This document shows, piece by piece, positions 1-32,000 of a stretch of DNA of 32,000 nucleotides. Source of the DNA: an archaeon GW2011_AR10. Its GTDB lineage: Archaea; Iainarchaeota; Iainarchaeia; Iainarchaeales; GW2011-AR10. The translations under genes were made by a program, and so were the position numbers. The stretch spans positions 900,001 through 932,000 of the forward strand of contig CP010424.1 of NCBI GenBank assembly GCA_000830275.1, written 5' to 3'. The notes beneath the pieces are model-generated. The model was given only the letters and a program-made list of their open reading frames with translations. It was not told where the DNA came from and made no database searches. Position 1 is the stretch's first letter. Every line of letters starts with the position of its first letter.

Positions 1-237
1 AAACCTCCTTGTAAAACCTTTGGTTTTGCGAGGCCCGCAAAATCTATGATTTTGCTTGGGTTTTCTAAAAGGCTTAAGGCAGGGTTATCCAAACATTTAA
101 TGGACGCCATGAACCCGTCAACGCAACACTTTGTCAAAAAGAAAACAGGTGTTTTTATTTCACTTGACAAAGTGTTGAAAAGATACCGAGACCAATAACC
201 GCGACTTAAAAGCCAAGGTATCTTTTGGGTTGAATGA
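1..237. repeat. Copy A of a direct repeat of at least 237 bp (partner 7186-7422); truncated by the window start
   Basis: Base-by-base comparison at offset 7185 gives only 2 mismatches (pos 3 vs 7188; pos 215 vs 7400). Contains a perfect 14-bp inverted repeat caacactttgtcaa / ttgacaaagtgttg at 124-137 and 164-177 (26-nt spacer) and a small hairpin ttttgcg-aggcc-cgcaaaa at 24-42. Confidence 0.9.
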
Positions 238-353
238 AATAGTTGGGCAAATGGTCAAACAAACCACTTGGAACACTGCACTATGCCACACTATTGCAGA
301 CTACTAATAACAAAATATTAATAGTGGAACGCTGATTCTATTTAGGGGTTTTC

Positions 354-929
354 TTGGAAGAGGAAGCAAAGGAAAAACTGGAGAAAGCAGCAATAGTTTT
401 TGCTGTGCTGCTGCTGATTGCAATTGCATATGTAACCTACGTGCAGCCGGTTTTAGTGCAGGGTGAACCGCCAAAAGATGGAGGAAGCAATGGAACAGGG
501 CAACTTAGGGGCTGCTTTGAACTGCAGGGCTTTCTGTGCAAGGAAAACGAGAAGTGTTCTGCGGAATTGCTGCAGGCAACTGAAAGCAACTGCTGCAGCG
601 AGGCCTGCATTTCAGCTGAGCCTTATGCTGGAGGAACTTATGCTGGGGAAGGCATAGAAATTGATGGCACTGCAACCGAGGAACAGAAAGAAAAAATAAG
701 GGAATACATTCAAGAGCAGCTTTCCTCAAAGAATCCTATTGATGAAGGAAGTGAGGGCATTGAAGGAGGGGGAGGAACTGGCAGCGCAGTTGTGCTGGGC
801 ATTCCATGCGAGCTGCCAAATGGGCATCCAATATTGTACTGCGACTGCATGGACATTTGCTTGTCAGAAGAAGTTCCACAGGAAGAATGCGAGCTTATTT
901 GCTATGGCAGGCAAGTTGAGGCGAGCTAA
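354..929 (+). CDS. Membrane-anchored Cys-rich hypothetical protein with prepilin-like N-terminus
   Basis: 191-aa ORF with a TTG start a few nt after AGGGG. N-terminus ..KLEKA|AIVFAVLLLIAIAYVTYV. Two Cys-rich blocks (CFELQGFLCKENEKC..CCSEAC and CELPNGHPILYCDCMDICL..CELICYG). Its stop at 929 abuts the next ATG at 930. Confidence 0.55.
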   Translation: MEEEAKEKLEKAAIVFAVLLLIAIAYVTYVQPVLVQGEPPKDGGSNGTGQLRGCFELQGFLCKENEKCSAELLQATESNCCSEACISAEPYAGGTYAGEGIEIDGTATEEQKEKIREYIQEQLSSKNPIDEGSEGIEGGGGTGSAVVLGIPCELPNGHPILYCDCMDICLSEEVPQEECELICYGRQVEAS

Positions 930-1346
930 ATGAATTCAGTTGAAAGAGTAAAAGCGCAGGTAGCAGCAGAGTACTTGATTGTAATGGCTTTCCTGCTGGT
1001 GGCAGTTGGAGTGCTTTCAGCTTACAGTTTCATTACATTAAGCGAATCAATCAAGGCAAGGCAGGCAATCAATGCTGTTGACTCAATCGCAAACGCTGCT
1101 GACAGGGTTGGGGCATTTGGAGAAAACAGCAAGCTGATTGTGAAAGTTGAGCTGCCGGACGGAGTGCTGGCATTCAAAACAACAGGAAAAGAGGTTCAGA
1201 TTCAGATGCAGAGCTTCGGCAACACTACAGATGTTTATACAACAGCATTGTTTGATATTACTCCTGCAACGCTCTCCCCAAACAGTGGAAAAACATTATA
1301 CCTTGTTGAAGTGGTTGACTCAAACGTTGTTGTTTCACCAGCGTAA
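930..1346 (+). CDS. Archaeal type IV pilin-like protein (class III signal peptide), putative minor pilin
   Basis: 138-aa ORF. N-terminus MNSVERVKA|QVAAEYLIVMAFLLVAVGVL has a basic residue plus Ala, then the Q...EYL motif and a hydrophobic helix, typical of archaeal prepilins. Confidence 0.75.
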   Translation: MNSVERVKAQVAAEYLIVMAFLLVAVGVLSAYSFITLSESIKARQAINAVDSIANAADRVGAFGENSKLIVKVELPDGVLAFKTTGKEVQIQMQSFGNTTDVYTTALFDITPATLSPNSGKTLYLVEVVDSNVVVSPA

Positions 1347-1355
1347 GTGTTTTGA

Positions 1356-1718
1356 ATGAATGGAAAAGGCCAAGTGGAAGTAGAAGCAGTGGCAGCAGTA
1401 GGAGTTGTGCTTCTTTTCTTTGTGCTTGGAATGGTTTTAGTGACGATAAGGAACAATGAAGTTAATGCTCTGCAGGAAGTGCAGTTCAAAGAAGCGCAAT
1501 GCAGGAAAGTGTCAGAAATAATCGGGTTCCTCAATGCAAGGCAGGGCAGCCAAGAGATTTTTTTCCGGCTGAACGAGGATGCCAACATCTCGCAGGGAGA
1601 AGTGATTGTTGGAAGCGTTTTCTGCAGGCATTTGGGAAGCGCTGCTGAAGCGCAGCTTTCAAGCGGAAAAGTGAAAGCAAGCGAAGTGAACGGAGCTGTT
1701 GTGCTTGAAAACGTTTGA
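1356..1718 (+). CDS. Pilin-like protein (class III signal peptide), putative minor pilin
   Basis: 120-aa ORF. N-terminus MNGKG|QVEVEAVAAVGVVLLFFVLGMVLV. Lies 9 nt after the previous gene. Confidence 0.65.
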   Translation: MNGKGQVEVEAVAAVGVVLLFFVLGMVLVTIRNNEVNALQEVQFKEAQCRKVSEIIGFLNARQGSQEIFFRLNEDANISQGEVIVGSVFCRHLGSAAEAQLSSGKVKASEVNGAVVLENV

Positions 1719-2208
1719 CCTGAATGAGAGCGGGCAAACAATCCTTGTGGACCTGACTTTTGCGCTGCTGATTTTTCTGCTGGTGTTCAATTCAATTAAT
1801 GCAGCATACATTTCCTCTGTTGCAAGCGTTAAAGAAAGAAGCCGGCTGAACGAAATGCAGCTCAAGGCAACGCAGGCAATTGAAAGCCTTGTAAGCTTTG
1901 AAGGAACTCCAAGCAACTGGGAGGAACTGCCGCTGCAGCAGGTTCAAGAAATTGGTTTGGCCGATGAAAGCAAAACAATAAACGAGGCAAAGCTTAACGC
2001 ATTCAAGAACCTTTCAGCAGACTACAATTCAACCAAAGTGCTGCTAAACCTCGGCTTGTTTGATTATTTTTTCAGCCTGAAAGGAGCAGATGATGTCAAT
2101 GCAGGGCTGCCTGCAACAACAAATGCAACACAAGTGCAAGTGAAAAGAATTGTAACATACAAGGGAGAGGAAGCAATTGTTGAATTCACGTTATACTCGC
2201 TGTCATGA
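1699..2208 (+). CDS. Pilin-like hypothetical protein
   Basis: 169-aa ORF. N-terminus ..LNESG|QTILVDLTFALLIFLLVFNSI. No in-frame ATG precedes the hydrophobic helix, so the start is TTG at 1699 or 1705 (GGAG at 1692-1695). Overlaps the upstream stop at 1716-1718. Confidence 0.6.
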   Translation: MCLKTFDLNESGQTILVDLTFALLIFLLVFNSINAAYISSVASVKERSRLNEMQLKATQAIESLVSFEGTPSNWEELPLQQVQEIGLADESKTINEAKLNAFKNLSADYNSTKVLLNLGLFDYFFSLKGADDVNAGLPATTNATQVQVKRIVTYKGEEAIVEFTLYSLS

Positions 2209-5011
2209 AGGAAGCGGGCGAGGAAAGGGCTTTGTCAAAACCTTTTCAACAAAAGGTTTACGAAAAGAGGAAAAAAGAGGCTTTGCCTTTTCCACTGATG
2301 CAGTAATTGCAACTGTTTTGGTGGGGGCAGCGCTGGCGTTGCTTGCAGTGCAGCCTTCAATAAACACAAGCGTTTCAGGGCTTTCACTGAAGCAGGCAAG
2401 CGATGACGTTTTTCTTTCAATGCAGAGAAGCGGGTTCATGCTGTTAACGATTGACTCAAATGCTCCAAGCGAAGCTGTTGCGCAAATACGCTTAAAGGCA
2501 TTGGGCCTGCTGCCTGAAAACACGGAATTGTTTGTTGAATTGAAACAGTTTGACTTGAATATAGAGGAATGCAGGGCAAACAAAACTTTTAACGCGTGCT
2601 TTGAAAGCGTTGCAAGCGTCAACTCCGGCCCCGCAATTCCAAGCGGAAAAGAAGTTGTAGGGGGAACAACATACTTTTTCAAAAAACAGGGTTCAAGCGA
2701 CTGCAACTTAAGCTACCTCGAGTTAAAAGAATTTGAGGGAATGCATGAGGATTACGGCAGTGAACTTTTTTTTTCTGAACAAAAGCCCCTTGAACTATTC
2801 TTTCAAGAAGAAGGAGGGGGAGAAGACCTGAACATAAATTTTGATGTCAACGTTTCACCAAGCGAAAGCATTTCATGCGATGAAAACGTTACAGTAACTT
2901 TGAGTGTTAGCGTTCCAGAAAACGTCAGAACGCCGATAGATGTTGTGCTTGTTCTTGACCGCAGCGGCAGCATGTCATGGAACGGCTATGTTAGCACTAG
3001 CTCTGCAAACTCTGTTTGGGGCAATGACGGAAATTACGTTTTTGTGGGAGATGGCAGTGCCGGAGTCAGGGCAATTGACGTAAGCAACCCAAGGCTCCCC
3101 GTAATTGTTGACACTATTGACCCTGGCAGTGTCAATGATGTGTATGGGGAGGGCAACTATTTGTATGCAACTGAAACAGCATCAGATGACGAGCTTATAG
3201 CGTATGACGTAAGCAATCCAAGCGACTTGCAACAGCTTGACCGGTTAATTTTTTCAAGCGTTTACGGGGTTTTTGCATTGAATGATTTTGTTTTTGTTGC
3301 AGGTGACAGGTCAGGAGGCGGAAACAATCGGGGCCTTTACATTGTGGATGCAAGCAATAAAAGCGACTTAACCAACAGGGGGAGAGCAAACCAGAATTAT
3401 GCAAGGAGCTCATTCGTTGTAGGCAATACTGCATTTCTTGCAATTGGTTCCAACGGCTTTGCAACAGTTGATGTAACAAACAAGGATGCGCCGGTTGTGC
3501 TTGACACTTATGATACAAGCGGCTATGGCTGGAGCACATTAATTGAAGGGAATTACGGTTTTGGTGCTGATGGGGAAGCAGGCCTGCAGGTGTTTGACAT
3601 AAGCAATTTGAACAACATCCAGCTGGCAGACAATTTTGATACACCGGATTACTCTTACAGTGTTTTTGTTTTAGGCAACAAGGCATACGTAGCAGATTAT
3701 TCGTCGCTTCAAATTCTTGATGTTAGCGATCCAAACAACGTAGTGTTTGAAAAAAGTTTTTCGTCTCCATACGAATACCAAGACCTTTTTGTGAAAGACA
3801 ACTTTGCTTTCCTTGCGGCAGGAAGCATTGGTTTCATTACGCTTGACCTAATCAACGGCCCGAGAATCGACAACGCAAAACAAGCAGCAAGCGAATTCGT
3901 TGACTTCAACGGATGGAGCCTGCCGCCTGACCAGATTGGAGTGGTTTCATTCAATACCAGTGCAACGCTTAACCAGCAGCTTACCACAAACAAAACTGAC
4001 TTGAATTCGGCGATTTATTCTCTTGTTGCTTCAGGCGGCACCAACATTGAGGAGGGAATAAGGAGTGCCACAACAGAGCTAACTTCCGTGAGAGCAAACC
4101 CAAATGCGCTGCATTTCCAAGTTGTTTTATCGGATGGCCAGTCAAATTCCGGGAATTCGCTTTTGGCAGCACAGGATGCAGCTGATGAAGAAATTGTGAT
4201 TTACACTGTTGGGTTTGGTGCTGATGCAAGCGAAGCAGAGCTGACAGCAATAGCAGAAGCAACAGGAGGCAGCTATTATTTTGCCGAAGACGACAATGCT
4301 TTGTCGGAAATATTTAATTTGATTGCAGAGCAAATTGAAGAGCTTGCAAATGATTCAAACGTGAATGTTCCAATTGGCGGGGGCGCATTAGTTTCCAATC
4401 CGGGTTCGGGCAGCATTGTTGACGGCAACCTTCTGTTCAATTCTGGCTCAATTACGCCTGATACGCCTTGGAGCGCATCCTACATTCTTAATTTCCCCTG
4501 CTCGAATGCTTTCAACTGCTCGATTGACGCTTTAAGCTTTCCAGGGGAAGGAAGCTACTTTGAATACGTTGACGTTAACGGCATAACACGGAGAGTTGAC
4601 TTCAATGTAAGCACAACCCTTGATTTTTTGAACAGGGATTTAACGGTTGACATTTATGGTGCGGAGCTTGTGGGGGAGAGTTCAGCAGAAATTGATGTGA
4701 ATGTTGCAAATGTAGGGGATTTGAATTCAGGCGAAACTTTACTGAACTTTTACCTTGACGATATCAATGGAACACTGCTTGACTCAAAAAATGTTCCGGA
4801 ACTGTGCGGCTTGAATGATTCAGTGTGCACTTCAACGCGGTTCACTGTTTTCTCTCCTGTTTCAATCAGCCAAGAGGGAGTTATTTACGCGGTTGTGAAC
4901 GACAACAATTCGGTGAGTGAGTGCCCGAACAACAACTTTGATGCAGTTAACTGCTTTGGCGGGCCGGCAACAGAATATTATGCATTAGAGTACAGGGTGT
5001 GGAGGGAATGA
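2177..5011 (+). CDS. Modular pilin-adhesin: prepilin-like N-terminus, vWA domain interrupted by a 7-repeat LVIVD beta-propeller, C-terminal CARDB-like domain
   Basis: 944-aa ORF. TTG start at 2177 sits 7 nt after GGAGAGG, and there is no in-frame ATG before the TM helix. N-terminus ..KEEKRG|FAFSTDAVIATVLVGAALALLAV. MIDAS motif DRSGS at 2957-2971. Seven repeats of the type N[YF]xFVxDGxxGhxhhDVSNPxxP span ~3025-3862. The vWA then resumes (NAKQAASEFVDF..IGVVSFNTSA..ASGGTNIEEGI..VVLSDGQSN..IYTVGFG..GGSYYFA) to ~4346. A CARDB-like segment follows at ~4636-4990. Confidence 0.9.
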   Translation: MLNSRYTRCHEGSGRGKGFVKTFSTKGLRKEEKRGFAFSTDAVIATVLVGAALALLAVQPSINTSVSGLSLKQASDDVFLSMQRSGFMLLTIDSNAPSEAVAQIRLKALGLLPENTELFVELKQFDLNIEECRANKTFNACFESVASVNSGPAIPSGKEVVGGTTYFFKKQGSSDCNLSYLELKEFEGMHEDYGSELFFSEQKPLELFFQEEGGGEDLNINFDVNVSPSESISCDENVTVTLSVSVPENVRTPIDVVLVLDRSGSMSWNGYVSTSSANSVWGNDGNYVFVGDGSAGVRAIDVSNPRLPVIVDTIDPGSVNDVYGEGNYLYATETASDDELIAYDVSNPSDLQQLDRLIFSSVYGVFALNDFVFVAGDRSGGGNNRGLYIVDASNKSDLTNRGRANQNYARSSFVVGNTAFLAIGSNGFATVDVTNKDAPVVLDTYDTSGYGWSTLIEGNYGFGADGEAGLQVFDISNLNNIQLADNFDTPDYSYSVFVLGNKAYVADYSSLQILDVSDPNNVVFEKSFSSPYEYQDLFVKDNFAFLAAGSIGFITLDLINGPRIDNAKQAASEFVDFNGWSLPPDQIGVVSFNTSATLNQQLTTNKTDLNSAIYSLVASGGTNIEEGIRSATTELTSVRANPNALHFQVVLSDGQSNSGNSLLAAQDAADEEIVIYTVGFGADASEAELTAIAEATGGSYYFAEDDNALSEIFNLIAEQIEELANDSNVNVPIGGGALVSNPGSGSIVDGNLLFNSGSITPDTPWSASYILNFPCSNAFNCSIDALSFPGEGSYFEYVDVNGITRRVDFNVSTTLDFLNRDLTVDIYGAELVGESSAEIDVNVANVGDLNSGETLLNFYLDDINGTLLDSKNVPELCGLNDSVCTSTRFTVFSPVSISQEGVIYAVVNDNNSVSECPNNNFDAVNCFGGPATEYYALEYRVWRE

Positions 5012-5970
5012 GTAAAGGAATACTGTTAAGCCTGCTGACGCTTTTTCTTCTCTTGAATTTGATTGCATTGAACCAGATTGCAGTTCAATCGGACAGCTCG
5101 GCAAGTGAAAGCATTGCGGGCATTTCTGCTTTGACTGCTGCAAGCGACAAGCTTGAATTAGTTGCGGAGAACATTGTTTTCCTGCACCGCTTCGGGGCAG
5201 CGGAAAGCATTGCGGAAAGGGCGCTTCCGTTTTCCTTTTCGTTGGATTCCAACAGGTTTGAGGCAAGGCAGCGGCTGCCAGTAAATGCAGACACATTGAA
5301 TGGCTTCTTTGACTCAATCAATTCTTTCCGGGTTTTTGTTTCTGACACCAACTACTCAAACGCGTTTGATGGTTTGGCGGTTGACGCAAACACAATTGAA
5401 AACGATTCATGGAATGGGAACTCTGAAAGAATTTCGTTCCTGGTGAAACCTCAGTGCCTTGAATTCTTTGTCAAGGACTTAAACATTGCGGGCTTTAATG
5501 CAGGAAACTGTGATAGCGAATTCGACATTAACAGCGTTAAGCGATTTGACTTAAATGTTCTGGTTCCTTCAACCGAGGACTTCAATTCAGTGCAGTGCAG
5601 TTTTGACGGCAGCATTGGGTGCCCTTCAGCTGAATTCAACCCCGGCGCGCAGGGAAACTTTGTTGAAATAAACCTGCTGGATGAGAACTGTTCGAACTGC
5701 TCCATTCCTGCGGGTCAGAAAAAAATTTCAGCATACTATATTGCAAGCGCAGACAACAATGTAACAATAAGCTGCACCGGCATCTGTAACTCTGAGCCAG
5801 TAGTAATCAGCGTTGGGAAAGGCCTGACAGTTGAAAGCAGCGGCAACCGCATTGAATTCGTTTTTTCCGCACTGTTTGATTCCCCAGTTAAACAGTTCAA
5901 GTTCAACGACTTTAATGTAAGCGTTTCAAACAAGAATGCAGGGGTTAGCGCTAGGTATGGGAATGGATAA
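5008..5970 (+). CDS. Pilin-like hypothetical surface protein
   Basis: ATG at 5008 lies directly after GGAGGG and forms an ATGA overlap with the upstream stop (5009-5011). The ORF track starts at GTG 4999. N-terminus MSKG|ILLSLLTLFLLLNLIALNQIAV. Confidence 0.7.
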   Translation: MSKGILLSLLTLFLLLNLIALNQIAVQSDSSASESIAGISALTAASDKLELVAENIVFLHRFGAAESIAERALPFSFSLDSNRFEARQRLPVNADTLNGFFDSINSFRVFVSDTNYSNAFDGLAVDANTIENDSWNGNSERISFLVKPQCLEFFVKDLNIAGFNAGNCDSEFDINSVKRFDLNVLVPSTEDFNSVQCSFDGSIGCPSAEFNPGAQGNFVEINLLDENCSNCSIPAGQKKISAYYIASADNNVTISCTGICNSEPVVISVGKGLTVESSGNRIEFVFSALFDSPVKQFKFNDFNVSVSNKNAGVSARYGNG

Positions 5971-12338: not shown

Positions 12339-12349
12339 GGGTGTGAAGA

Positions 12350-12532: not shown

Positions 12533-12543
12533 AGTGACAAATT

Positions 12544-25446: not shown

Positions 25447-25854
25447 ATGAAGAAAAAAAGGAAAGCAACAGGCAAAAGCAAGGCAAAGAGAGCAGGCAGA
25501 GGAAATAGAAAAGCCCCGAGAAAAGCCAAAAGGAAAACTGTTAAAGTGGCTTCTGCAAGGGAAAGCGTGAAGAAGCATGGCCTGCTTGAAAACGCTTTAA
25601 GGGAAATAGAGAAAGAGCTTGACTCTCTGCGCGGACAAAAGCTTGACACTGAAAAAGAACTAGGTGGGCTTGCATCCAGTATTTCCTACACACAAAACAA
25701 GGAGCTGGAGCTTAAAAACACGGTACAGAAGCTTGTGGCAAAAGAGGAGCAGCTGAACCTCAAAAGGGAAAGGCTACAAGAGCAGATCCAAAAAGTAAAG
25801 GAAAAGATTACAAAGATAAGCCAGCTTGAAGCTGAAATGGAAGAAATTTCTTAA
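25447..25854 (+). CDS. Basic-tailed coiled-coil protein (hypothetical)
   Basis: 135-aa ORF. N-terminus MKKKRKATGKSKAKRAGRGNRKAPRKAKRK, followed by heptad-like E/K/L-rich sequence to the end. Confidence 0.6.
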   Translation: MKKKRKATGKSKAKRAGRGNRKAPRKAKRKTVKVASARESVKKHGLLENALREIEKELDSLRGQKLDTEKELGGLASSISYTQNKELELKNTVQKLVAKEEQLNLKRERLQEQIQKVKEKITKISQLEAEMEEIS

Positions 25855-25921: not shown

Positions 25922-27100
25922 TTATTCTTCTTCCCTGAATATTTCTTGGTTGATGTAAATCTCAAAGCCGTGGTCAGTAATAGTGTATGGGGTGATTTTT
26001 CTGACATGGGAGGAACTCCTCAACTTCAGGATTTCAAGCGCTCTCTGCCTTGTATTGTGAATCTGAATATTGTAGAAAACCACAACCCCGTCTGCCAGAA
26101 ACTCTTCAATGCCTGAACGAGAGTATGTTCTTGGGCTCTGCTCCGTTTCACCGAAAACAAGGTTGCATGAATTGAACCTCTCCAGGGTTTCAAAAAGGTG
26201 GCGCAAGTACTGCCTGTAACCCTGCTCGTTTTCCATGAACGCAATGGAAAGAGCGGAAAGTGAATCAACGACAACCCTGTCTGGCTTGAAAGGCAAGTCA
26301 AACTGGAAAGGCAAGTCGAATTCCTCAAACTCGATGTAGAGTCCGCCCCTCTCCTTGGTTAACATTGCTTCAACTGCCCTTGCAATTGTTAGGGGATCAA
26401 TTTTAATGATTGCAAGGTTTTGCTCTTCCTCCATTTTTTCTAAATCCCAGTTAAAGTTTTCCATCATGTTCTCTTTTATCTTTGAAGCTGTTTCCTCCAA
26501 GGTAATGTACAGGCCTTTTTCTCCGTTCAATGCGCCATTGTAAATGCTCTGCATTCCAAAAGTTGTTTTGCCTGTTCCAGCTCCACCAGAAAGAAGTATT
26601 GTGTCGCCGCGCTTGAGACCGCTTCTTCCAATCAACTTGTCAAAGTCTGAAACCCTCACCGGAAGAACCTCGCGGAAAACTACTTTGCCAGACCTTTTTT
26701 GGAGCATTGCGGATTCCTTAATGCGCCAATCTCCACTGCTCTTATTTGTTGCTTCAAACGAGCCCCTGCCGGATGTTGAAGCCCTTTCAGCACCAAGAAT
26801 GCCGCTAATCATTGCCTGGGAGGAAGCTGGGCTGGCATCTCTTCTGCCAAAGAATTCATCATAAGAAGAACTCCAAAACTCGTTGCCTGAACTGCTTGGT
26901 TGCTCTTTTCGGTGTTCAGCTGAAGGTTTTTTGCTTGACCCTTCAGGAGTGGAAGAGCCCTTGGCCTTTTCGAGCAGGGAATGCGCTTCCTCCTCGCTTA
27001 AGCCAATGTCCTTCAAACTACCCACAACATCGTTATCGGAGAGTTTGTCTGCAACCATTCTTTTGGCTGCGTCAAGCAGCCTCTGCTTTTTTGCGTCCAT
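25922..27100 (-). CDS. KaiC/RecA-superfamily ATPase (FlaH/ArlH-like) with N-terminal helical domain and Ser-rich linker
   Basis: ATG at 27100 (MDAKKQRLL..); the track start is GTG 27109. Walker A GGAGTGKTT at 26561-26587 (minus strand). Walker B-like RVVVDSLSAL. C-terminal ..ALEILKLRSSSHVRKITPYTITDHGFEI is typical of KaiC-like single-domain ATPases. Confidence 0.93.
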   Translation of the reverse strand: MDAKKQRLLDAAKRMVADKLSDNDVVGSLKDIGLSEEEAHSLLEKAKGSSTPEGSSKKPSAEHRKEQPSSSGNEFWSSSYDEFFGRRDASPASSQAMISGILGAERASTSGRGSFEATNKSSGDWRIKESAMLQKRSGKVVFREVLPVRVSDFDKLIGRSGLKRGDTILLSGGAGTGKTTFGMQSIYNGALNGEKGLYITLEETASKIKENMMENFNWDLEKMEEEQNLAIIKIDPLTIARAVEAMLTKERGGLYIEFEEFDLPFQFDLPFKPDRVVVDSLSALSIAFMENEQGYRQYLRHLFETLERFNSCNLVFGETEQSPRTYSRSGIEEFLADGVVVFYNIQIHNTRQRALEILKLRSSSHVRKITPYTITDHGFEIYINQEIFREEE

Positions 27101-27184
27101 GAACCCCACAAATAGTAGGTTTTAGAGTTTAAAAACGTTTCAGAAAACAGAAAAAGGAGAAAAGCAAAATGAACTAATGATTCG

Positions 27185-27658
27185 TTAAGTGCACACGCCC
27201 ACAAGCGGCCTGATTCCAACTTGGGTTAGGTTAAGAGTGCTGCCGCCAACTGTTCTGCTGTAAGAAATGTTCACATCATAACTGTATGGGTCGGTGGAGT
27301 TACCGCAATCAATTGCTGTTGCGTTTACGGCGCTCTTCTCTGATCCGCCAGTAAACTCTGTGTCAGTGGTGGCAAGAGAAGTTGAGGTAAGCCTTATATC
27401 GGTTAAAGTCAACTTGTTGGATGTCTGGTTTCTGAGAACAATTATTGGTGCAGTGCTGCCGTCAGAGAACACCTCATACTGTGTCATTGCAAAAGGTGAA
27501 GTGCTTGCCCAATAAGCCTGGCTCTGGCTTTGCGTAATGCCTGTTCCAACTCCAGGAATCCAGCCAAGAACACCCACCACAATCAATGCAATTACAATTA
27601 TTACTGCAAGAATTATTAGGTACTCGGTTGTACCCTGGCCCTTCCTGTGAAGCATCAT
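27185..27658 (-). CDS. Archaeal type IV pilin (class III signal peptide), candidate pilin of module 2
   Basis: 157-aa ORF. N-terminus MMLHRKG|QGTTEYLIILAVIIVIALIVVGVLGW. Thr/Ser-rich body. A TATA-like acatttaaatacc lies upstream (~27706-27718, minus strand). Confidence 0.88.
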   Translation of the reverse strand: MMLHRKGQGTTEYLIILAVIIVIALIVVGVLGWIPGVGTGITQSQSQAYWASTSPFAMTQYEVFSDGSTAPIIVLRNQTSNKLTLTDIRLTSTSLATTDTEFTGGSEKSAVNATAIDCGNSTDPYSYDVNISYSRTVGGSTLNLTQVGIRPLVGVCT

Positions 27659-27776: not shown

Positions 27777-28796
27777 TTAGGCAGTTAATTTTAGGATTCC
27801 TGAAAGCACGGCTGTTGAAACAAAAAACAAGGCAAATGAAACAATAACCATTAATGGAAAATAGCGCAGGCCAAGCTTTTCCTTGCCGGTTTCAAGCAAC
27901 CCGATGAAAAGGCTCCCCATAAAAGAATTCACTGCCAGAAGAAAGAATGCAATCAAACGCATGAAGTCGGTGGAAACCAGCAGCTCGCTTGAAAGAAAAC
28001 CTATTTGCCCCACTGCAGTTGGAGCCACTGTAATCTGGCTCTGCACTTGGTTAATCATTTCAAGGAAAAGAACTGAAACGCTCAAAAGAAGCGGGGTTGC
28101 AACGAGCACAACGAAAACAACAAACAAAACATACATCCGAGTGCTTGACTGGAGCTCCTTTTTCAGTGCCTGGTTTCTGCGCAGGTCATTGGAAGTGGTT
28201 TCAAGAAGCTTTGCAATATGCCCGCCAGAACGGATTGACTGCGCAAAGAAGGAAACTGTTTCGGATAGGTTGCGGGAGCGAATCCTAATGCTTAACTCCC
28301 TCAGCGCATGAGTGAAGGACTCAGTCCCCAAACTCTTTGAAGTTGCAATCTTCACTTCCTCCGCCAAGGGGCCGAACTCGTCCATTGAACTCTGCCTGAA
28401 AGCAGAAAAGGGAGTCATCCCGGCGCGGATATTCGAAGCAACCAGCGAAAGAAAATCCGGGAGGATTTCTTCAACACGCTGGCTTCTTCCCTCAATTACG
28501 TAAAACAAGTGAAGGTAAAAAATCGTAATGGCCAGAACTGAAAAAAGAACAAACAAAAACAAGGAAAGAAAAATTACATGGTATGGTTCAAGAAAAACAA
28601 CTTGGAAAAAGTTTAGAAAAGTTAATGGAAGCAGGAAACCAATCAAACCGAAAAGCACCGAGAAAAGAATTTTCTTGCCAAGCCAGATGTCAAAGTCTTC
28701 GCTGATTCCGGCAAACTCTAGCATCGGGTAAATTCTCTCTTTCCTGAACTCTTTTGGAGTTAGCTCAGCCAAGGAATTGCTTATCCTCTCAAACAC
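27777..28796 (-). CDS. FlaJ/TadC-like polytopic membrane protein (single T2SS-F-type domain), paralogue of 10561..11562
   Basis: 339-aa ORF. GTG start overlaps the upstream TAG by 1 nt. Domain LPDFLSLVASNIRAGMTPFSAFRQSS..GPLAEEVKIATSKSLGTESFTHAL..FFAQSIRSGGHIAKLLETTSNDL. Confidence 0.9.
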   Translation of the reverse strand: MFERISNSLAELTPKEFRKERIYPMLEFAGISEDFDIWLGKKILFSVLFGLIGFLLPLTFLNFFQVVFLEPYHVIFLSLFLFVLFSVLAITIFYLHLFYVIEGRSQRVEEILPDFLSLVASNIRAGMTPFSAFRQSSMDEFGPLAEEVKIATSKSLGTESFTHALRELSIRIRSRNLSETVSFFAQSIRSGGHIAKLLETTSNDLRRNQALKKELQSSTRMYVLFVVFVVLVATPLLLSVSVLFLEMINQVQSQITVAPTAVGQIGFLSSELLVSTDFMRLIAFFLLAVNSFMGSLFIGLLETGKEKLGLRYFPLMVIVSFALFFVSTAVLSGILKLTA

Positions 28797-29683
28797 TACA
28801 AGTACACCTTCGGAATTCTTGTCCTAACAAAGCCAATCAAAACAACTTGGAAGACAATCCCAAGCCCAACAATCAGTGAAATAATTTCTGGCCCAATAGA
28901 GCTGCCGCCCAAAGCCGAAAGAATCACAAAAAAAGTTATGCCGAGAGTCGGAATTGCAGCTGCAAACAGCAAGTAAAGCAGAATCCAGAGATTTAATTCA
29001 GCAGCATAGTTTTTTATTGCACGCTGCTGCGCTGCAGTAAGCGAGTCCACAACCGTGTTAAGCGCGCCTGACAGAGAGGCACCGCTTCTGAGTGAGGAGA
29101 GAAGCTGCCACGAGGTTTTCTTCAGGTACTCTGACTTGGTTTTCAGCGCAAGCTTTTCCAAGGCCCTTGTTTCAGGTGTGCCAGAATTTATATCCCTGAT
29201 AACCCCCTTGAATTCCTCCGATACAACTCCATAATTTGATTTTGAAACATTAATCATAGCATCATAAAGGCTTATTCCTGATGTAACCTGAATCAGCATG
29301 CTCTTCACCGCAAAGGTTAGGCTCTGGTCAATGCCTGAAGCAACCTGGTAGGAAATAATTCTCGGGTACACTAAATGCAGAAAGAAAAAAATTGCGAAAA
29401 AAACCGCGCCGATTAAAACTGAAAGCAGAATGTTCTCCTGCAAAAATTCCGAGTCCTTCAAATAGAGAACACTGTTGAAGAAAAGAAAGCCAACCAAGCC
29501 GTAAACCAAGGCTGAAAGCAATGCAGCAACAAGGTAATGCTCGGCTTCGATTTCTAGCTCGGCTTTTTTCAGGTCATACTTTAAGCCGTAAAAAATTTTT
29601 GCAAGGAAACCTCCAAGCCAAGGAAGCCTTTGGCCAATGCTCTTTGAGAACCCAATCGAAAAAAGGAGAAAGCGAACCCTCAT
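28796..29683 (-). CDS. FlaJ/TadB-like polytopic membrane protein (single T2SS-F-type domain), paralogue of 9661..10560
   Basis: 295-aa ORF. ATGA overlap with the ATPase stop (29680-29683). Domain FAVKSMLIQVTSGISLYDAMINVSKSNYGVVSEEFKGVIRDINSGTPETRALEKLA..LLSSLRSGASLSGALNTVVDSL. Confidence 0.85.
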   Translation of the reverse strand: MRVRFLLFSIGFSKSIGQRLPWLGGFLAKIFYGLKYDLKKAELEIEAEHYLVAALLSALVYGLVGFLFFNSVLYLKDSEFLQENILLSVLIGAVFFAIFFFLHLVYPRIISYQVASGIDQSLTFAVKSMLIQVTSGISLYDAMINVSKSNYGVVSEEFKGVIRDINSGTPETRALEKLALKTKSEYLKKTSWQLLSSLRSGASLSGALNTVVDSLTAAQQRAIKNYAAELNLWILLYLLFAAAIPTLGITFFVILSALGGSSIGPEIISLIVGLGIVFQVVLIGFVRTRIPKVYL

Positions 29684-31560
29684 TGCTCCAACCCCAGAAA
29701 CCTTTTAGGGGAAACGCCCTTTTCAGCTGCAGCCATGATTGAATCAGGCTCAGAGTAAAAAAGCCTCATGATGGCTCCGACTTGATCCATTTCACTAATC
29801 CTGTTGTCGAGCATCCACTCCAGAATCTTTGCCCTCGAAAAAACATCCTCGCCAATTTCCTTCTGCGTTAAACCAGTGTGGAGGTTAAGGTTCTGGATAA
29901 GCTTTGAAGGCTCATTCACCTTATCCCAGTCATCTTCCCTCGGCCTCCAGCGGTAAATCGTGTTAACAGCCAGCTGCTCTGCCGAAACCCCTGATTCAAG
30001 CTCGGCTATTTCATAGGTGCGCCTAAGGTTTGTCCTGCGGTCACGGAACTGCACCAAAATTAGGTCAAGTGCTTCAACCTCAAGCGGTGGCACATTTATC
30101 GGCGGCTCAATAAGGCGCCTTAAAACCTGCTGGCCTGAATCAGCGTGAATGGTGGAGTAAACAGAGTGGCCTGTGTGCATTGCCTCAAAGAGAACCTCTG
30201 CTTCTCTCTGCCTGCGCATTTCTCCGAGAATGATTCTGTCCGGGCGCATCCTCAAAGAAGAGTGGAGCAGGTCAAGCATTCCAACTTCTCCTAAACCCTC
30301 TGGGTTAGGGTTCCTTGTTGTGAGAGGCACCCAGTTCCAGCGCATGTAGGATGGAAGCATTATTTCCCTTACGTCCTCAATTGAAATAATCCTGTGATAG
30401 GCCGGAATAAAAGCGCACAAAGAATTTAGGGTTGAAGTTTTACCTGAAGCAGTGCCGCCTGCAATCAGCACGCTCATCTCGTAATGCATTGCCATCCAAA
30501 GCAGTGCAGCCATTTCAATGCTCATAGTGTGCTTTTCGCCAATGAAATCAACAATAGTCCAAGGCCTCCTAGAGAAACGCCTGATTGTGATTGTGTTGCC
30601 GGAAGAGGAAACCGGGAAAAGGGTTGCATTAACCCTGTCGCCGGTAATAAGGTGTGCATCAAGAATCGGGTTAAGCGTTGTTATCTCTCTCCCAACCTTT
30701 CTTCCAATCTGTGAAGCAAAGTTTGCAATTTTTTCCTCTGATTCAAGGTAAATGTTGGAGCTTGCCCATCCGAAAACACGGTGGTAAACCGTTACAGGAG
30801 TTTTGCTTGAATTGATTGCAATCTCTTCCAAAGAATTGTCTGCCATCAGGAGCTCGATTCTGCCCAAACCATACATTGAATGGAGGAGCCTTCCGGCAAG
30901 GAGGTTAAGGTTTTTCTCGTCAATGCCCGGAATATGCGCTTGGAGCTCTTGCTTTGAAACATTGAAAAACTTTTCCTTCAGCTGGATGCTTTTCTTTTCA
31001 TCCGTTATTTCAGCCAGCTCAACAGGAATTTTTTCCGCAATCTCTTCCCTCAGCTGCTCCAAAAAAGCGTGGGTGTATGGCCCGACAAAAGGAGTCTTAA
31101 TCTCGTAAATAGTGCTGTTTTCCTTCCTTGACTTGAAGAGCGTGGCATGCACCGGAATAAAATCAGCAAAGAAATCGTATTGCTGCAAAACAAGGCCGTC
31201 AACTTTTTCCTGCGGTTCAATCTGCAGCTCTTTAAGCAGAACAACTGAAGGGCTTGAAATGACCGAGGCAGGGTAAACCACGTCAACAACGCCTTGCTTT
31301 TCCAAAACCTTTGCAACTTCCTCAACCTGCTTCTGGCTCCAACCAAGAGATGATGCAATTTCCTTAACCGATGCCTTCTTTTTCTGTACAACTATTGTCA
31401 TCAGTTCTTCAATGCCAGTTTTGATGGGAGCGTAATCAAAAGCAGGTTTCGAGTGTTCTTTTTTTAAGTGCTGTCCTTGCGCTGGCTTCTCAAGATTAAA
31501 AGCCCACTTTGCAGGAGACTTCATGGCATTGTCAAATTCAGCAACTGAATCATTCGGCAT
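29680..31560 (-). CDS. Type II/IV secretion-family assembly ATPase (FlaI/PilB/TadA-like) with fused N-terminal wHTH-like extension
   Basis: 626-aa ORF. Walker A GGTASGKT, SIEDVRE, RPDRIILGEMR, HTGHSVYSTIHA. Collinear with 8165..9673, with well over half of core positions identical by eye. The extra ~120 N-terminal residues contain the wHTH-like segment (~31271-31413). Confidence 0.95.
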   Translation of the reverse strand: MPNDSVAEFDNAMKSPAKWAFNLEKPAQGQHLKKEHSKPAFDYAPIKTGIEELMTIVVQKKKASVKEIASSLGWSQKQVEEVAKVLEKQGVVDVVYPASVISSPSVVLLKELQIEPQEKVDGLVLQQYDFFADFIPVHATLFKSRKENSTIYEIKTPFVGPYTHAFLEQLREEIAEKIPVELAEITDEKKSIQLKEKFFNVSKQELQAHIPGIDEKNLNLLAGRLLHSMYGLGRIELLMADNSLEEIAINSSKTPVTVYHRVFGWASSNIYLESEEKIANFASQIGRKVGREITTLNPILDAHLITGDRVNATLFPVSSSGNTITIRRFSRRPWTIVDFIGEKHTMSIEMAALLWMAMHYEMSVLIAGGTASGKTSTLNSLCAFIPAYHRIISIEDVREIMLPSYMRWNWVPLTTRNPNPEGLGEVGMLDLLHSSLRMRPDRIILGEMRRQREAEVLFEAMHTGHSVYSTIHADSGQQVLRRLIEPPINVPPLEVEALDLILVQFRDRRTNLRRTYEIAELESGVSAEQLAVNTIYRWRPREDDWDKVNEPSKLIQNLNLHTGLTQKEIGEDVFSRAKILEWMLDNRISEMDQVGAIMRLFYSEPDSIMAAAEKGVSPKRFLGLEQ

Positions 31561-31570
31561 GCGCGCACCC

Positions 31571-31585
31571 TTAATATATATAAAG
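31571..31585 (-). promoter_or_regulatory. TATA-like box of motor operon 2, consistent with a leaderless or very short-leader mRNA
   Basis: The minus strand reads ctttatatatattaa, centred about 20 nt upstream of the ATG at 31560. No SD-like sequence lies between them. Confidence 0.4.
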
Positions 31586-31652
31586 CACTATAGAAAAGAA
31601 TTTCCCCAATAAAAGCCTTATGCTTTCCGATCCGGGTTTCGCTGAAGGCACA

Positions 31653-31721
31653 TTTTGATAAAACTTTTCCTAAAAGTTTTTGGCGGAGCCCCTTTTTGAT
31701 AAAACTTTTCCTAAAAGTTTT
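31653..31721. repeat. Two perfect 28-nt direct repeats, each containing a 9-bp-stem palindrome
   Basis: ttttgataaaacttttcctaaaagtttt occurs at 31653-31680 and 31694-31721. Within each copy, aaaactttt / aaaagtttt are reverse complements separated by cct. Confidence 0.85.
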
Positions 31722-32000
31722 CACCTATTAAAATTTTTCCAGAAGAGTTAACGTCTGCAACAGAAAAATTTAGGTCAGCATCGTAAAACCAGTACAGATT
31801 GTCAGAAGACGATGGGACAACTGCTCTAACCGAAATCGATGACCTGGTTGCAGCATTGTCAAAGCTTTCGCTGATGCGCAATGCTTTCTGGCTGCCTTCA
31901 ATTGCGCCAATTTCAACTGAAAAAGAATCATTCGGGTTTCCGGAATAATTGAAAGTGAAAGTGTTAAGGGTGCTTGAATCAAGCTTTCCGGAGCTGGTAA
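31711..32000 (-). CDS. 3-prime end of a hypothetical Ser/Asn/Asp-rich (probably secreted) protein; 5-prime end lies outside the window
   Basis: Manual translation of the minus strand, in a frame not in the ORF track because it has no start in the window, is open from 32000 to TAG at 31713-31711. It reads ..TSSGKLDSSTLNTFTFNYSGNPNDSFSVEIGAIEGSQKALRISESFDNAATRSSISVRAVVPSSSDNLYWFYDADLNFSVADVNSSGKILIGENF*. The composition looks more protein-like than track ORF 31770..31982. Confidence 0.45.
   Translation of the reverse strand, partial: TSSGKLDSSTLNTFTFNYSGNPNDSFSVEIGAIEGSQKALRISESFDNAATRSSISVRAVVPSSSDNLYWFYDADLNFSVADVNSSGKILIGENF

What the first reader, a model, noticed from the sequence alone, without database searches (positions are those of the whole stretch)
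1..32000. Window-scale hypothesis: a composite attachment island of two pilus motors, a KaiC-like active/pseudo pair and SHOCT-like-tailed adhesins
Apart from a ~4-kb TA/CoA/sugar-mutase insert, every gene is a pilus motor part, a pilin, a giant surface protein or a KaiC-like or coiled-coil cytoplasmic protein. Two diverged copies of the same motor cassette flank three adhesin paralogues and a KaiC-like ATPase with its Walker-A-less partner. The adhesin tails and the pseudo-ATPase C-terminus share a motif, detailed in a separate finding. This suggests one co-functioning system in which a type IV pilus-like machine is coupled through KaiC-like proteins to transmembrane adhesins, for example for host or partner-cell attachment in an episymbiotic archaeon. 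No prepilin peptidase (PibD/FlaK/EppA-type) lies in the window, so processing must be supplied from elsewhere in the genome.
Basis: inference. Interest (0 to 1): 0.7.

Follow-up and report, generated by a model that had tools for sequence, protein, structure and literature searches.

The report
Pilus, surface-protein and KaiC-like gene island
This stretch of a tiny groundwater archaeon (phylum Iainarchaeota) holds two pilus machines and three large surface proteins, and comparison with about 130 related loci shows that pairs of an active and a disabled KaiC-like ATPase are what recur beside both, though not that all of it is one machine.

Summary
The gene inventory is real. There are two paralogous type IV pilus cassettes, three paralogous single-pass surface proteins, a KaiC-like ATPase and a partner with a KaiC fold but no Walker A.

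- The block of surface proteins, pseudo-KaiC, coiled-coil protein and KaiC is present in all 16 non-redundant Iainarchaeota loci.
- In other DPANN lineages, pseudo-KaiC (DUF7504) and KaiC pairs sit directly beside pilus cassettes in 8 of 38 loci.
- In another 8 of those 38 loci they sit beside unrelated giant membrane proteins that carry the same cytoplasmic tail motif. No locus has both.
- The KaiC pair is therefore the common denominator. A direct pilus-to-adhesin coupling is not shown.

Several details need correcting.
- CoaD, CoaE and the sugar mutase are not an insert. They are syntenic across the phylum.
- The adhesin tails are not SHOCT-like (0 of 21 match in Pfam). Only the pseudo-KaiC C-terminus weakly is.
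- The tail-to-KaiC linkage persists where that C-terminus is absent.
- The island runs past the window end, with five more pilin-like genes and three more KaiC-family genes.
- General synteny in this phylum weakens the linkage argument for cassette 1.

The parts
1..237 (+). Copy A of a 255-nt direct repeat, cut by the window start. It lies upstream of the minor-pilin operon.
   Evidence: The two copies are 98-99% identical. Copy B, the copy folded, gives z = -4.7 on the + strand. No Rfam family matches.
7186..7422 (+). Copy B of the same repeat, upstream of the wHTH/ATPase1 operon.
354..929 (+). 191-aa Cys-rich membrane-anchored protein. It is the first gene of the cassette-1 accessory block.
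   Evidence: One TM segment and 12 Cys. No Pfam hit.
930..2208 (+). Three small pilin-like proteins (138, 120 and 169 aa) with KAQ/KGQ/SGQ class-III-like N-termini.
   Evidence: Sequence. Each has an N-terminal TM segment. Orthologues lie in L128, L088 and L114 next to pilus genes.
2177..5011 (+). 944-aa pilin-like protein with LVIVD repeats, a VWA domain and a CARDB domain. Candidate pilus tip adhesin.
   Evidence: Pfam LVIVD 7e-23, VWA 7e-21, CARDB 7e-6. The N-terminus has KRGF followed by a hydrophobic stretch.
4999..7129 (+). Two further N-terminally anchored accessory proteins (323 and 397 aa).
   Evidence: Orthologues lie upstream of ATPase1 in L105 and L129-L132.
7585..8160 (+). 191-aa winged-helix plus coiled-coil protein. 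It is the split-off equivalent of the N-terminal domain of ATPase 2.
   Evidence: HTH_24 at 6.5e-4. 37% identical to ATPase2 residues 48-98, E=5e-9.
8165..9673 (+). Pilus assembly ATPase 1 (FlaI/PilB-type, 502 aa).
   Evidence: T2SSE 5e-35. The NCBIfam FlaI model gives 274 bits against a cut-off of 550.
9661..11562 (+). Split TadB/TadC (FlaJ-like) membrane platform of cassette 1 (299 and 333 aa).
   Evidence: T2SSF 5e-14 and 3e-17.
11605..12018 (-). Major-type pilin (137 aa, MDKRGQSALEYL...).
   Evidence: Sequence. Conserved next to CoaD in L022, L025, L026, L028 and L055.
12123..12816 (+). Three small ORFs forming a toxin-antitoxin-like stretch. The last is ParE-like. This is the only lineage-specific insert in the region.
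   Evidence: ParE_toxin 9e-6, covering profile positions 32-88 of 89. The stretch is absent in L026 and L028, where the gaps are 140 and 67 nt.
12845..13916 (-). CoaD (bacterial-type PPAT) and CoaE. These are housekeeping genes that are syntenic with the island.
   Evidence: TIGR01510 at 191 bits against a cut-off of 103. CoaE at 2e-49. Synteny.
14642..16081 (+). Phosphohexomutase (PGM/PMM/GlmM-like). It lies immediately upstream of the adhesins on the same strand in the window and in 10 of the GTDB-genome loci, and again in the metagenome and look-up loci.
   Evidence: Four PGM_PMM domains. PgmG model at 507 bits against 600. Synteny.
16111..18900 (+). Long surface protein 1 (929 aa). Order of parts: signal sequence, jelly-roll head, Cys-rich repeats, Ig/MG2-like stalk, TM segment, conserved cytoplasmic tail.
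   Evidence: Head model pLDDT 93.6 with a jelly-roll fold.
18836..21430 (+). Long surface protein 2 (864 aa, or 860 as called by the source). It is a paralogue of surface protein 1.
   Evidence: 32% identity. Tail HMM E=2e-16.
21539..22825 (+). Short surface protein (428 aa, or 411 as called). It has the stalk, TM segment and tail only. It is always adjacent to pseudo-KaiC or KaiC.
22998..25376 (+). Pseudo-KaiC (792 aa). Order of parts: 50-aa N-terminal helical domain, K/E-rich linker, Walker-A-less KaiC-fold core (DUF7504), long coiled coil, SHOCT/GvpG-like C-terminus.
   Evidence: DUF7504 9e-10 and KaiC 3e-5. AF2 pLDDT 86.6, and Foldseek top hits are PH0284, KaiC and FlaH. Alignment.
25447..25854 (+). 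135-aa basic coiled-coil protein. Its presence co-varies with the long C-terminal extension of pseudo-KaiC.
25922..27109 (-). KaiC-like ATPase (395 aa). It has a single RecA-type domain with a Walker A motif, plus the same N-terminal helical domain as pseudo-KaiC.
   Evidence: PF06745 2e-48. Closest PDB sequences are KaiC at 5e-49. N-terminal domain shared with pseudo-KaiC: hhalign probability 96%, E=1e-9.
27185..27658 (-). Major-type pilin (157 aa, ...RKGQGTTEYL...).
   Evidence: Class_IIIsignal 1.4e-4. Orthologues lie next to pseudo-KaiC in L007, L008, L015 and L116.
27777..29683 (-). Split TadC/TadB membrane platform of cassette 2 (339 and 295 aa).
   Evidence: T2SSF 6e-15 and 4e-16.
29680..31560 (-). 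Pilus assembly ATPase 2 (626 aa) with a fused N-terminal winged-helix domain.
   Evidence: T2SSE 2e-30 and HVO_A0114/TrmB-type HTH.
31711..32000 (-). 3' end of a 286-aa pilin-like gene. Cassette 2 continues beyond the window.
   Evidence: Mapping of L044 onto the window.

Best explanation
The window is the central 32 kb of a roughly 40-kb surface-structure region. The region is conserved in Iainarchaeota (Diapherotrites, DPANN) and consists of three separable modules.

(A) A type IV pilus locus: accessory and minor pilins including a VWA tip-type protein, a wHTH protein, the ATPase, a split TadB/C platform and a major pilin.

(B) A trio of single-pass surface proteins. Each has a jelly-roll head (in the two long ones), a Cys-rich spacer and an Ig-like stalk. 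Their conserved juxtamembrane cytoplasmic tails are served by a cytoplasmic complex of the KaiC-like ATPase, its Walker-A-less paralogue and a small coiled-coil protein.

(C) A second pilus locus that carries its own KaiC-like ATPase.

Proposed mechanism (inferred, not shown):
- The active and inactive KaiC-fold proteins form a mixed RecA-type ring through their cores and their shared N-terminal domain.
- The ATP or phosphorylation state of that ring sets the assembly, clustering or conformation of the tail-bearing surface proteins. Signalling could run inside-out or outside-in.
- Related KaiC/DUF7504 pairs do the equivalent job at pilus motors, as ArlH does at the archaellum ATPase.
- The pili and the surface proteins are probably co-regulated parts of one attachment or envelope programme rather than one physical machine.

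Shown: gene content, paralogy, folds, topology and conserved adjacency. Inferred: physical contacts, direction of signalling and the adhesive role.
For: Gene content and folds
- Gene content and paralogy are established.
- The pseudo-KaiC core has a KaiC/RecA fold (AF2 pLDDT 86.6; Foldseek PH0284 TM 0.67, KaiC, FlaH).
- Loss of Walker A is family-wide: 2 of 146 DUF7504-like ORFs have the motif, against 90 of 92 KaiC-like ORFs.
- An N-terminal domain is shared only by the KaiC395 and pseudo-KaiC families (hhalign probability 96%, E=1e-9).

Conserved adjacency in Iainarchaeota
- The module of adhesins, pseudo-KaiC, cc135 and KaiC is present in 16 of 16 non-redundant Iainarchaeota-type loci.
- The short adhesin lies 0-47 nt from a KaiC-family gene, in two orientations of the triad.

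Evidence from other DPANN lineages
- An HMM of the adhesin tails finds the same TM-plus-tail motif in unrelated giant membrane proteins next to KaiC/DUF7504 genes. The named records are Woesearchaeota and Aenigmatarchaeota MAGs, and the rest are unclassified archaeal or unlabelled metagenome contigs. This holds in 8 of 38 loci, and 5 of the 8 tail-bearing ORFs in the GTDB-genome loci are within 3 nt of a KaiC-family gene.
- DUF7504/KaiC genes directly abut pilus cassettes in 8 of 38 other loci. Two of these are single-strand operons, L114 and L116.
- Cassette 2 in this genome is headed by a third KaiC-like ATPase.

Precedent
- KaiC-family ATPases are associated with archaeal pilus loci (PMC4858521).
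- CirA, a KaiC-like protein beside the arl genes, represses motility (PMC10983859).
Against: - No experiment or complex prediction links tails to KaiC proteins.
- In the 38 non-Iainarchaeota loci, pilus cassettes and tail proteins never co-occur. The two associations may be independent uses of a generic regulator.
- One adhesin orthologue with an intact tail (L128) has no KaiC-family gene within 10 kb.
- Five Iainarchaeota species have a pseudo-KaiC without the C-terminal extension and lack cc135, while their adhesin tails are unchanged. Part of the proposed scaffold is therefore dispensable.
- Gene order in this phylum is conserved beyond the island. Within-phylum linkage, especially of cassette 1 across CoaD/CoaE, may be inherited order rather than function.
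- The genome-wide frequency of tail-motif proteins could not be measured, because the reverse-anchored search returned one hit.
Confidence: 0.55

Rival explanations
1. One reading: this is a single integrated machine. Both type IV pilus motors are mechanically or allosterically coupled through the KaiC-like pair to the transmembrane adhesins, for attachment to a host cell.
For: - Adhesins, the KaiC triad and cassette 2 stay adjacent in the window and in L015/L127, even though the triad is inverted between them.
- The cassette-2 pilin sits next to pseudo-KaiC in L007 and L008.
- Cassette 1 is linked in 7 of 7 loci that reach that far.
- The stray adhesin orthologue in L128 lies beside a minor-pilin/VWA block.
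Against: - 0 of 38 other DPANN loci combine a pilus cassette with tail proteins.
- At least 11 Iainarchaeota species have no cassette 2 next to the module.
- Cassette 1 is separated from the adhesins by CoaD, CoaE and PGM, and general synteny is high.
- The proposed shared-motif link is weak, and the linkage persists without the pseudo-KaiC C-terminus.
- A host-attached lifestyle is not established for this phylum (PMC8561730).
Confidence: 0.2
2. The three 'adhesins' are cell-envelope (S-layer-like) structural proteins of Iainarchaeota rather than host adhesins. The KaiC pair controls their assembly or turnover, and the neighbouring pilus loci are unrelated neighbours kept by inherited gene order.
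For: - Copy number (one short plus one or two long) and gene order are fixed across the whole phylum. That is more typical of housekeeping envelope proteins than of fast-evolving host adhesins.
- The proteins are built of Ig-like domain arrays with a C-terminal TM anchor.
- A sugar mutase is always immediately upstream.
- Synteny extends into housekeeping genes.
Against: - The head domain is a jelly-roll of the galactose-binding-like or CBM-like kind. It matches the C-terminal domains of CocE/PepX and, more weakly, phage fibre and TNF-like heads, which suits ligand binding.
- N-glycosylation sequons are not enriched: 6-12 per 1000 aa, against 29-35 in the pilins.
- Tail-bearing proteins in other phyla have quite different ectodomains.
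- An extra paralogue sits by a pilin block.
Confidence: 0.2
3. The region is an archaellum-like motility locus, or a mobile or defence island.
For: - The ATPases score best against the FlaI model, and KaiC-like proteins recall ArlH.
- A ParE-like ORF and a 255-nt direct repeat are present.
Against: - The FlaI model gives 274-286 bits against a cut-off of 550, and the ArlH model 24 bits against 215.
- No archaellin or ArlC-G/X family was detected.
- No integrase or transposase was found.
- The block is vertically conserved across the phylum.
Confidence: 0.03

Closest known systems
KaiC-family ATPases encoded in archaeal type IV pilus loci (Makarova, Koonin & Albers 2016, PMC4858521)
   Same: KaiC-like single-domain ATPases lie in or next to operons of a FlaI/PilB-type ATPase, a TadC-type platform and pilins. 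They were predicted to be regulators, and that paper noted that a 'second component' is usually unknown.
   Different: - A Walker-A-less KaiC-fold paralogue (DUF7504) recurs as the partner.
- The same pair is also linked to single-pass surface proteins that carry a conserved cytoplasmic tail.
- DPANN genomes were not mentioned in that paper (0 occurrences of 'DPANN' or 'Diapherotrites').
ArlH (FlaH)-ArlI of the archaellum, and CirA of Haloferax volcanii (PMC10983859)
   Same: A KaiC-like RecA-fold protein works with, or regulates, a FlaI-type ATPase. The pseudo-KaiC core model superposes on FlaH 4yds.
   Different: - KaiC395 fails the ArlH model (24 bits against 215) and is closer to KaiC CI.
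- No archaellins or ArlCDEFG/X are present.
- The locus has an active/inactive pair with long extensions, and membrane-protein partners.
Bacterial Tad/Flp pilus with a TadG-type VWA pseudopilin
   Same: Both have split TadB/TadC-like platform genes, a set of small pseudopilins and a large VWA-containing pilin-like protein.
   Different: - The signal peptides are archaeal class III.
- The ATPase is FlaI-like and carries a wHTH domain.
- There is no secretin and no TadZ.
- LVIVD and CARDB domains occur in the VWA protein.
Analogy only: integrin-type inside-out signalling, and the Mycoplasma mobile gliding machinery (tandem giant surface proteins driven by internal F1-like alpha/beta ATPase paralogues). 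This comparison is from my own knowledge.
   Same: Tandem surface proteins with short cytoplasmic tails lie next to a cytoplasmic pair of an active and an inactive RecA-fold ATPase.
   Different: There is no homology, and no evidence here of force generation or motility. The comparison is purely architectural.

Membership tests
Archaeal type IV pilus (Tad-like) system | PilB/FlaI-family secretion ATPase (T2SSE) | tested here: met
   PF00437 at 5e-35 and 2e-30.
Archaeal type IV pilus (Tad-like) system | Polytopic TadC/FlaJ-type platform protein (T2SSF) | tested here: met
   Four T2SSF genes at 5e-14 to 3e-17, with 4-6 TM segments each. The platform is split into two genes per cassette.
Archaeal type IV pilus (Tad-like) system | Pilins with a class III signal peptide | tested here: inconclusive
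   PF04021 matches only the 157-aa pilin, at 1.4e-4 (22.1 bits against 23.7). KGQxxxEYL followed by a hydrophobic N-terminus is seen by eye in the 137- and 157-aa proteins, with weaker versions in 930-5970.
Archaeal type IV pilus (Tad-like) system | Prepilin peptidase (PibD/EppA/FlaK, Peptidase_A24) | tested here: not met
   No hit in the window ORFs or in the called genes about 2 kb upstream and 10 kb downstream. It may be encoded elsewhere; the rest of the genome was not searchable.
Archaellum | FlaI/ArlI equivalog, ArlH, archaellins and ArlC-G/X | tested here: not met
   FlaI model at 274 and 286 bits against a cut-off of 550. ArlH model at 24 bits against 215. No archaellin or Arl accessory family appeared in any Pfam scan.
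KaiC family (PF06745), single-domain archaeal type | RecA-type domain with Walker A and B that scores above the family threshold | tested here: met
   KaiC395 scores 165 bits against 26.6. The GAGTGKT motif is present. The top PDB matches are KaiC at 5e-49.
Circadian KaiABC oscillator | Double-domain KaiC with KaiB (and KaiA) partners | tested here: not met
   There is a single KaiC domain. circ_KaiC scores 101 bits against 546. No KaiB or KaiA family was found in the window or flanks.
DUF7504 (PF24336) | Score above the gathering threshold | tested here: met
   39.8 bits against 27. The core sequence has 1713 representative relatives, most of them 170-200 aa stand-alone proteins.
SHOCT domain (PF09851) | A match of the adhesin tails to the SHOCT profile | tested here: not met
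   0 of 21 tails match at E<=10, and none of the three window tails matches.
SHOCT domain (PF09851) | A match of the pseudo-KaiC C-terminus to the SHOCT profile | tested here: inconclusive
   6 of 18 homologues match, best E=6.8e-5 (significance relative to the Pfam threshold was not returned). GvpG matches 18 of 18. The window protein itself does not hit SHOCT.

The most novel reading that the evidence does not exclude
KaiC-like/pseudo-KaiC hetero-rings form a DPANN-wide, previously undescribed class of cytoplasmic ATP-driven engines or switches. They dock onto a conserved juxtamembrane tail (LQxxYFxxxxhxxxxY) of giant single-pass surface proteins. This would give these wall-less nano-archaea an integrin-like, or Mycoplasma-gliding-like, way to control or power cell-surface attachment from inside the cell, working alongside type IV pili during contact with partner cells.
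Probability: 0.15. Interest if true: 0.85.

Novelty: new variant of a known kind. Interest (0 to 1): 0.55.

Why it matters
How DPANN archaea hold on to surfaces or partner cells is largely unknown, and most of their surface proteins are unannotated.

If the KaiC/pseudo-KaiC pair really acts on the conserved tails of these surface proteins, three things follow:
- It would name the missing 'second component' of archaeal KaiC-like signalling hubs.
- It would give a function to the sizeable DUF7504 family (1713 representative clusters).
- It would define a simple sequence tag for finding regulated surface proteins in uncultured archaea.

It also offers concrete, testable protein pairs for interaction studies in a phylum that has no cultured member.

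Tried and rejected
- **Reverse-anchored test.** A profile of 21 tails searched against 5.8 billion proteins gave one hit. The motif is too short for that database size, so the genome-wide frequency of tail proteins stays unknown.
- **SHOCT assignment of the adhesin tails.** Rejected.
- **PDB sequence search with the whole pseudo-KaiC alignment.** It returned only coiled-coil proteins. The fold had to be shown through AF2 and Foldseek.
- **hhalign of the pseudo-KaiC core against the KaiC395 core.** Only 31% probability. It is suggestive on the Walker B region but not decisive alone.
- **Glycoprotein idea for the adhesins, prompted by the upstream sugar mutase.** Sequon density is not enriched.
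- **Bacterial promoter and terminator scan.** Uninformative for an archaeon.
- **Rfam.** No family matches the window or the 255-nt repeat.
- **Archaellum and mobile-element readings.** Rejected (no integrase; vertical conservation).
- **Literature.** No paper mentions DUF7504. Makarova et al. 2017 on KaiC hubs is not held, so I cannot exclude that inactivated KaiC partners are discussed there.

Full report
**What is in the window**

ORF listing and Pfam/NCBIfam scans give a dense, mostly co-directional gene set.

On the + strand, in order:
- A Cys-rich anchored protein (354-929).
- Three small pilin-like proteins (930-2208).
- A 944-aa pilin-like protein with LVIVD, VWA and CARDB domains (2177-5011).
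- Two more anchored proteins (4999-7129).
- A winged-helix/coiled-coil protein (7585-8160).
- A T2SSE ATPase (8165-9673) and two T2SSF genes (9661-11562).

On the - strand follow a KGQSALEYL-type pilin (11605-12018), then CoaD and CoaE (12845-13916). Three small toxin-antitoxin-like ORFs lie between the pilin and CoaD.

The + strand then carries:
- A phosphohexomutase (14642-16081).
- Three large surface proteins (16111-22825).
- A 792-aa DUF7504/KaiC-like protein (22998-25376).
- A 135-aa coiled-coil protein (25447-25854).

Converging on these, on the - strand, are a KaiC-like ATPase (25922-27109), a second pilin (27185-27658), two T2SSF genes (27777-29683) and a second ATPase with a fused winged-helix domain (29680-31560). 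No tRNA and no Rfam family were found.

*The two motor cassettes.*
- They are true paralogues. The ATPases are 47% identical, and the platform halves 30% and 35%.
- The separate wHTH protein of cassette 1 corresponds to the fused N-terminus of ATPase 2 (37% identity, E=5e-9).

*The three surface proteins.*
- They are paralogues at 32% and 24% identity.
- Each has a signal sequence, one C-terminal TM segment and a 60-70-aa cytoplasmic tail carrying LQxxYFxxGxMxxxxY.
- The head of the long forms models confidently (pLDDT 93.6) as a jelly-roll. It is closest to the C-terminal domains of CocE/PepX-type hydrolases (TM about 0.6), with weaker matches to phage-fibre and TNF-like heads.

*The KaiC pair.*
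- The KaiC-like ATPase has a Walker A motif and is closest to KaiC CI domains (5e-49). It is not ArlH (24 bits against a cut-off of 215).
- The 792-aa protein has no Walker A.
- Its core models (pLDDT 86.6) as a RecA/KaiC fold. The top Foldseek hits are PH0284, KaiC, FlaH and PH0186.
- So the 'active/pseudo pair' is real.
- The two proteins also share a roughly 50-aa N-terminal helical domain. Its profile similarity holds across orthologues (hhalign probability 96%, E=1e-9). In the sequence searched, the domain occurs only in these two families.

*Prepilin peptidase.* No such family was hit in the window or in the called genes about 2 kb upstream and 10 kb downstream.

**Corrections to the observation**

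*The tails are not SHOCT-like.*
- 0 of 21 adhesin-type tails match SHOCT in Pfam at E<=10.
- The pseudo-KaiC C-terminus (LEKKLxxLNxxYxxGxISxxAYxKxKxxIExLLKK, nearly invariant) matches GvpG in 18 of 18 homologues and SHOCT in 6 of 18. All matches are below threshold.
- A profile-profile comparison of tails against that C-terminus aligns the expected register but is weak (P=0.002, probability 14%).

*The window cuts the island.* The source contigs continue past position 32000 with:
- five pilin-like genes (286, 143, 166, 132 and 599 aa);
- a third KaiC-like ATPase (397 aa, 32% identical to the first);
- a divergent pair of a small KaiC (235 aa) and a small DUF7504 protein (219 aa; 28% identical to the pseudo-KaiC core, E=5e-21).

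**Where it comes from**

The exact proteins occur on groundwater metagenome contigs of up to 153 kb, and on one contig longer than 1 Mb. Homologues of the pseudo-KaiC and of the adhesins are almost all labelled Candidatus Diapherotrites or Iainarchaeum. The literature treats this phylum as metabolically rich DPANN that may be free-living (PMC8561730). 'Episymbiotic' is therefore an assumption.

**Neighbourhood analysis**

I fetched 37 species-level genome loci and 80 metagenome loci, all anchored on the pseudo-KaiC core. I added six loci anchored on adhesin orthologues. All ORFs were scored with the window's proteins and with an HMM of the adhesin tails.

*Within Iainarchaeota.* The order is:

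[accessory proteins - wHTH - ATPase1 - TadB1 - TadC1] - pilin(-) - CoaD(-) - CoaE(-) - mutase - long adhesin(s) - short adhesin - pseudo-KaiC - cc135 - KaiC(-) - small KaiC - small DUF7504 - coiled-coil(-) - DHH.

- All 16 non-redundant Iainarchaeota-type loci of at least 8 kb contain the adhesins, pseudo-KaiC and KaiC.
- The short adhesin is always 0-47 nt from pseudo-KaiC or from KaiC.
- Every locus that reaches far enough upstream has cassette 1. These are the window, L026, L028 and L129-L132, which makes 7 of 7.
- So CoaD, CoaE and the mutase are not an insert. Only the ~0.8-kb toxin-antitoxin-like stretch is lineage-specific.

*Cassette 2.*
- In this genome it sits between KaiC395 and the small KaiC pair.
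- In L015/L127 it is again adjacent to the pseudo-KaiC/cc135/KaiC triad, but the triad is inverted.
- In L007 and L008 only the cassette-2 pilin accompanies pseudo-KaiC, with housekeeping genes upstream.
- At least 11 species lack cassette 2 at this position.

**Evidence from outside the phylum**

Among the 38 other non-redundant loci of at least 8 kb:
- 25 have a KaiC-like ATPase near the DUF7504 gene.
- 8 have a pilus cassette directly adjacent.
- 8 have a giant membrane protein with a different ectodomain but the same TM-plus-tail motif.
- None has both a pilus cassette and a tail protein.

Among the pilus-adjacent loci:
- In L114 the order on one strand is ATPase-TadB-TadC-DUF7504-KaiC-KaiC, with a 3-nt gap before DUF7504.
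- In L116 the order on one strand is DUF7504-KaiC-pilins-ATPase-TadB-TadC-KaiC.

Among the tail-protein loci:
- One protein is LamG-like and carries three tail repeats.
- Five of the eight tail-bearing ORFs in the GTDB-genome loci are within 3 nt of a KaiC-family gene.
- The named records are Woesearchaeota and Aenigmatarchaeota MAGs. The rest are unclassified archaeal or unlabelled metagenome contigs.

Walker A is present in 90 of 92 KaiC-like ORFs and in 2 of 146 DUF7504-like ORFs. The DUF7504 core has 1713 representative relatives. Most are 170-200-aa stand-alone proteins, so the long Iainarchaeota form is a local elaboration.

**What this means**

- The recurrent element is the KaiC/pseudo-KaiC pair.
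- It associates with two kinds of envelope structure: type IV pili, as already noted for KaiC ATPases in PMC4858521, and tail-bearing surface proteins, which I could not find described.
- The window's lineage has both side by side.
- The tail-to-KaiC linkage does not depend on the pseudo-KaiC C-terminal motif.
  - Distant lineages have only the roughly 200-aa core.
  - Five Iainarchaeota species have short pseudo-KaiC proteins and lack cc135, yet keep the adhesin tails.
- The absence of cc135 exactly where the pseudo-KaiC extension is absent suggests that those two parts work together.

**Caveats**

- Synteny in this phylum extends beyond the island. DHH, a roughly 190-aa gene and a roughly 900-aa conserved gene follow in seven or more loci. 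The within-phylum linkage of cassette 1 may therefore be inherited order.
- One adhesin orthologue with an intact tail (L128, on a 719-kb contig) has no KaiC-family or motor gene within 10 kb. It does lie next to orthologues of the window's minor-pilin/VWA block.
- The genome-wide abundance of tail proteins could not be measured.
- Whether the surface proteins are adhesins or envelope (S-layer-like) proteins is open. Their fixed copy number and order favour a structural role. The jelly-roll head and the varied ectodomains of tail proteins elsewhere favour binding. Sequons are not enriched.

**Verdict**

- A conserved module couples tail-bearing surface proteins to a KaiC/pseudo-KaiC pair, genomically at least. 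KaiC pairs also accompany pilus motors.
- A single pilus-KaiC-adhesin machine is not demonstrated.
- I rate this as a new variant of the known theme of archaeal KaiC-like regulators of surface structures.

Noticed in passing
window 1-237 and 7186-7422 (255 nt in L001: 1819-2073 and 9004-9258): A 98-99% identical direct repeat lies in the two intergenic regions just upstream of the minor-pilin operon and of the wHTH/ATPase1 operon, bracketing the 7-kb accessory block. It folds into several long hairpins (z = -4.7 on the + strand, -3.8 on the - strand) and has no Rfam match. A 45-nt core of it was matched exactly only in loci of this organism. It could be a duplicated leader or promoter, a small RNA, or a recombination substrate.
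   Followed up: partly
L044 1-9850 (beyond window position 32000): The island continues with five pilin-like genes, a third KaiC-like ATPase (397 aa with a coiled-coil N-terminus), a divergent small KaiC (235 aa) plus small DUF7504 (219 aa) pair, a 435-aa coiled-coil protein and a DHH/RecJ-like gene.
   Followed up: yes
window 12845-13916: CoaD passes the bacterial-type PPAT equivalog model (191 bits against a cut-off of 103) and is paired with a CoaE-type dephospho-CoA kinase. To my knowledge archaea normally use unrelated enzymes for these steps, so this looks like an old bacterial acquisition. The pair is fixed in position across Iainarchaeota.
   Followed up: no
window 12123-12816: This toxin-antitoxin-like stretch is absent at the same position in L026 and L028. 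Its ParE-like ORF (66 aa) covers only profile positions 32-88 of 89, so it may be a truncated remnant.
   Followed up: partly
L046 16186-18621; L003 5777-7025: In some metagenome samples the pseudo-KaiC gene is called as two ORFs (611 and 192 aa), and the 397-aa accessory gene as 84 and 333 aa. These are either strain-level frameshifts or assembly errors in the same locus.
   Followed up: no
L029 15818-18517; L031 4401-6374; L033 10850-13318; L034 14031-16001: In Woesearchaeota-type loci the KaiC-like ATPase carries a 400-650-aa N-terminal extension. In the two sequences inspected (L029, L034) this contains repeated ~60-aa helical units (…EKHxYADWxAKNxxDxxLA…), and L029 also has a long P/Q/T-rich linker. 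In L029, L031 and L034 the ATPase is followed directly by a tail-bearing membrane protein.
   Followed up: partly
L036 889-5145 (-): A 1419-aa Aenigmatarchaeota protein has a sequence stretch that looks LamG-like by eye (no profile search was run), several TM segments and three copies of the tail motif. It lies immediately downstream of a KaiC-like gene.
   Followed up: partly
window 16756-17136: DNA-level repeats encode Cys-rich modules (CxSxSDCDDGxxxTxDxC) in the long adhesins. The same module alone accounts for hits to many unrelated giant proteins from other organisms (15% query coverage).
   Followed up: no
window 31637-31718: A tandem 41-nt repeat (83% identical) lies in the intergenic region just upstream of ATPase 2. 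It might be a promoter or operator duplication.
   Followed up: no
L128 13816-19262 and L001 747-1658: A DUF553/CEPT76-peptidase-like (transglutaminase-like) gene lies next to the minor-pilin/VWA block, both in this genome and in a distant relative where the motor genes are absent. It may belong functionally to the pilus accessory set.
   Followed up: no
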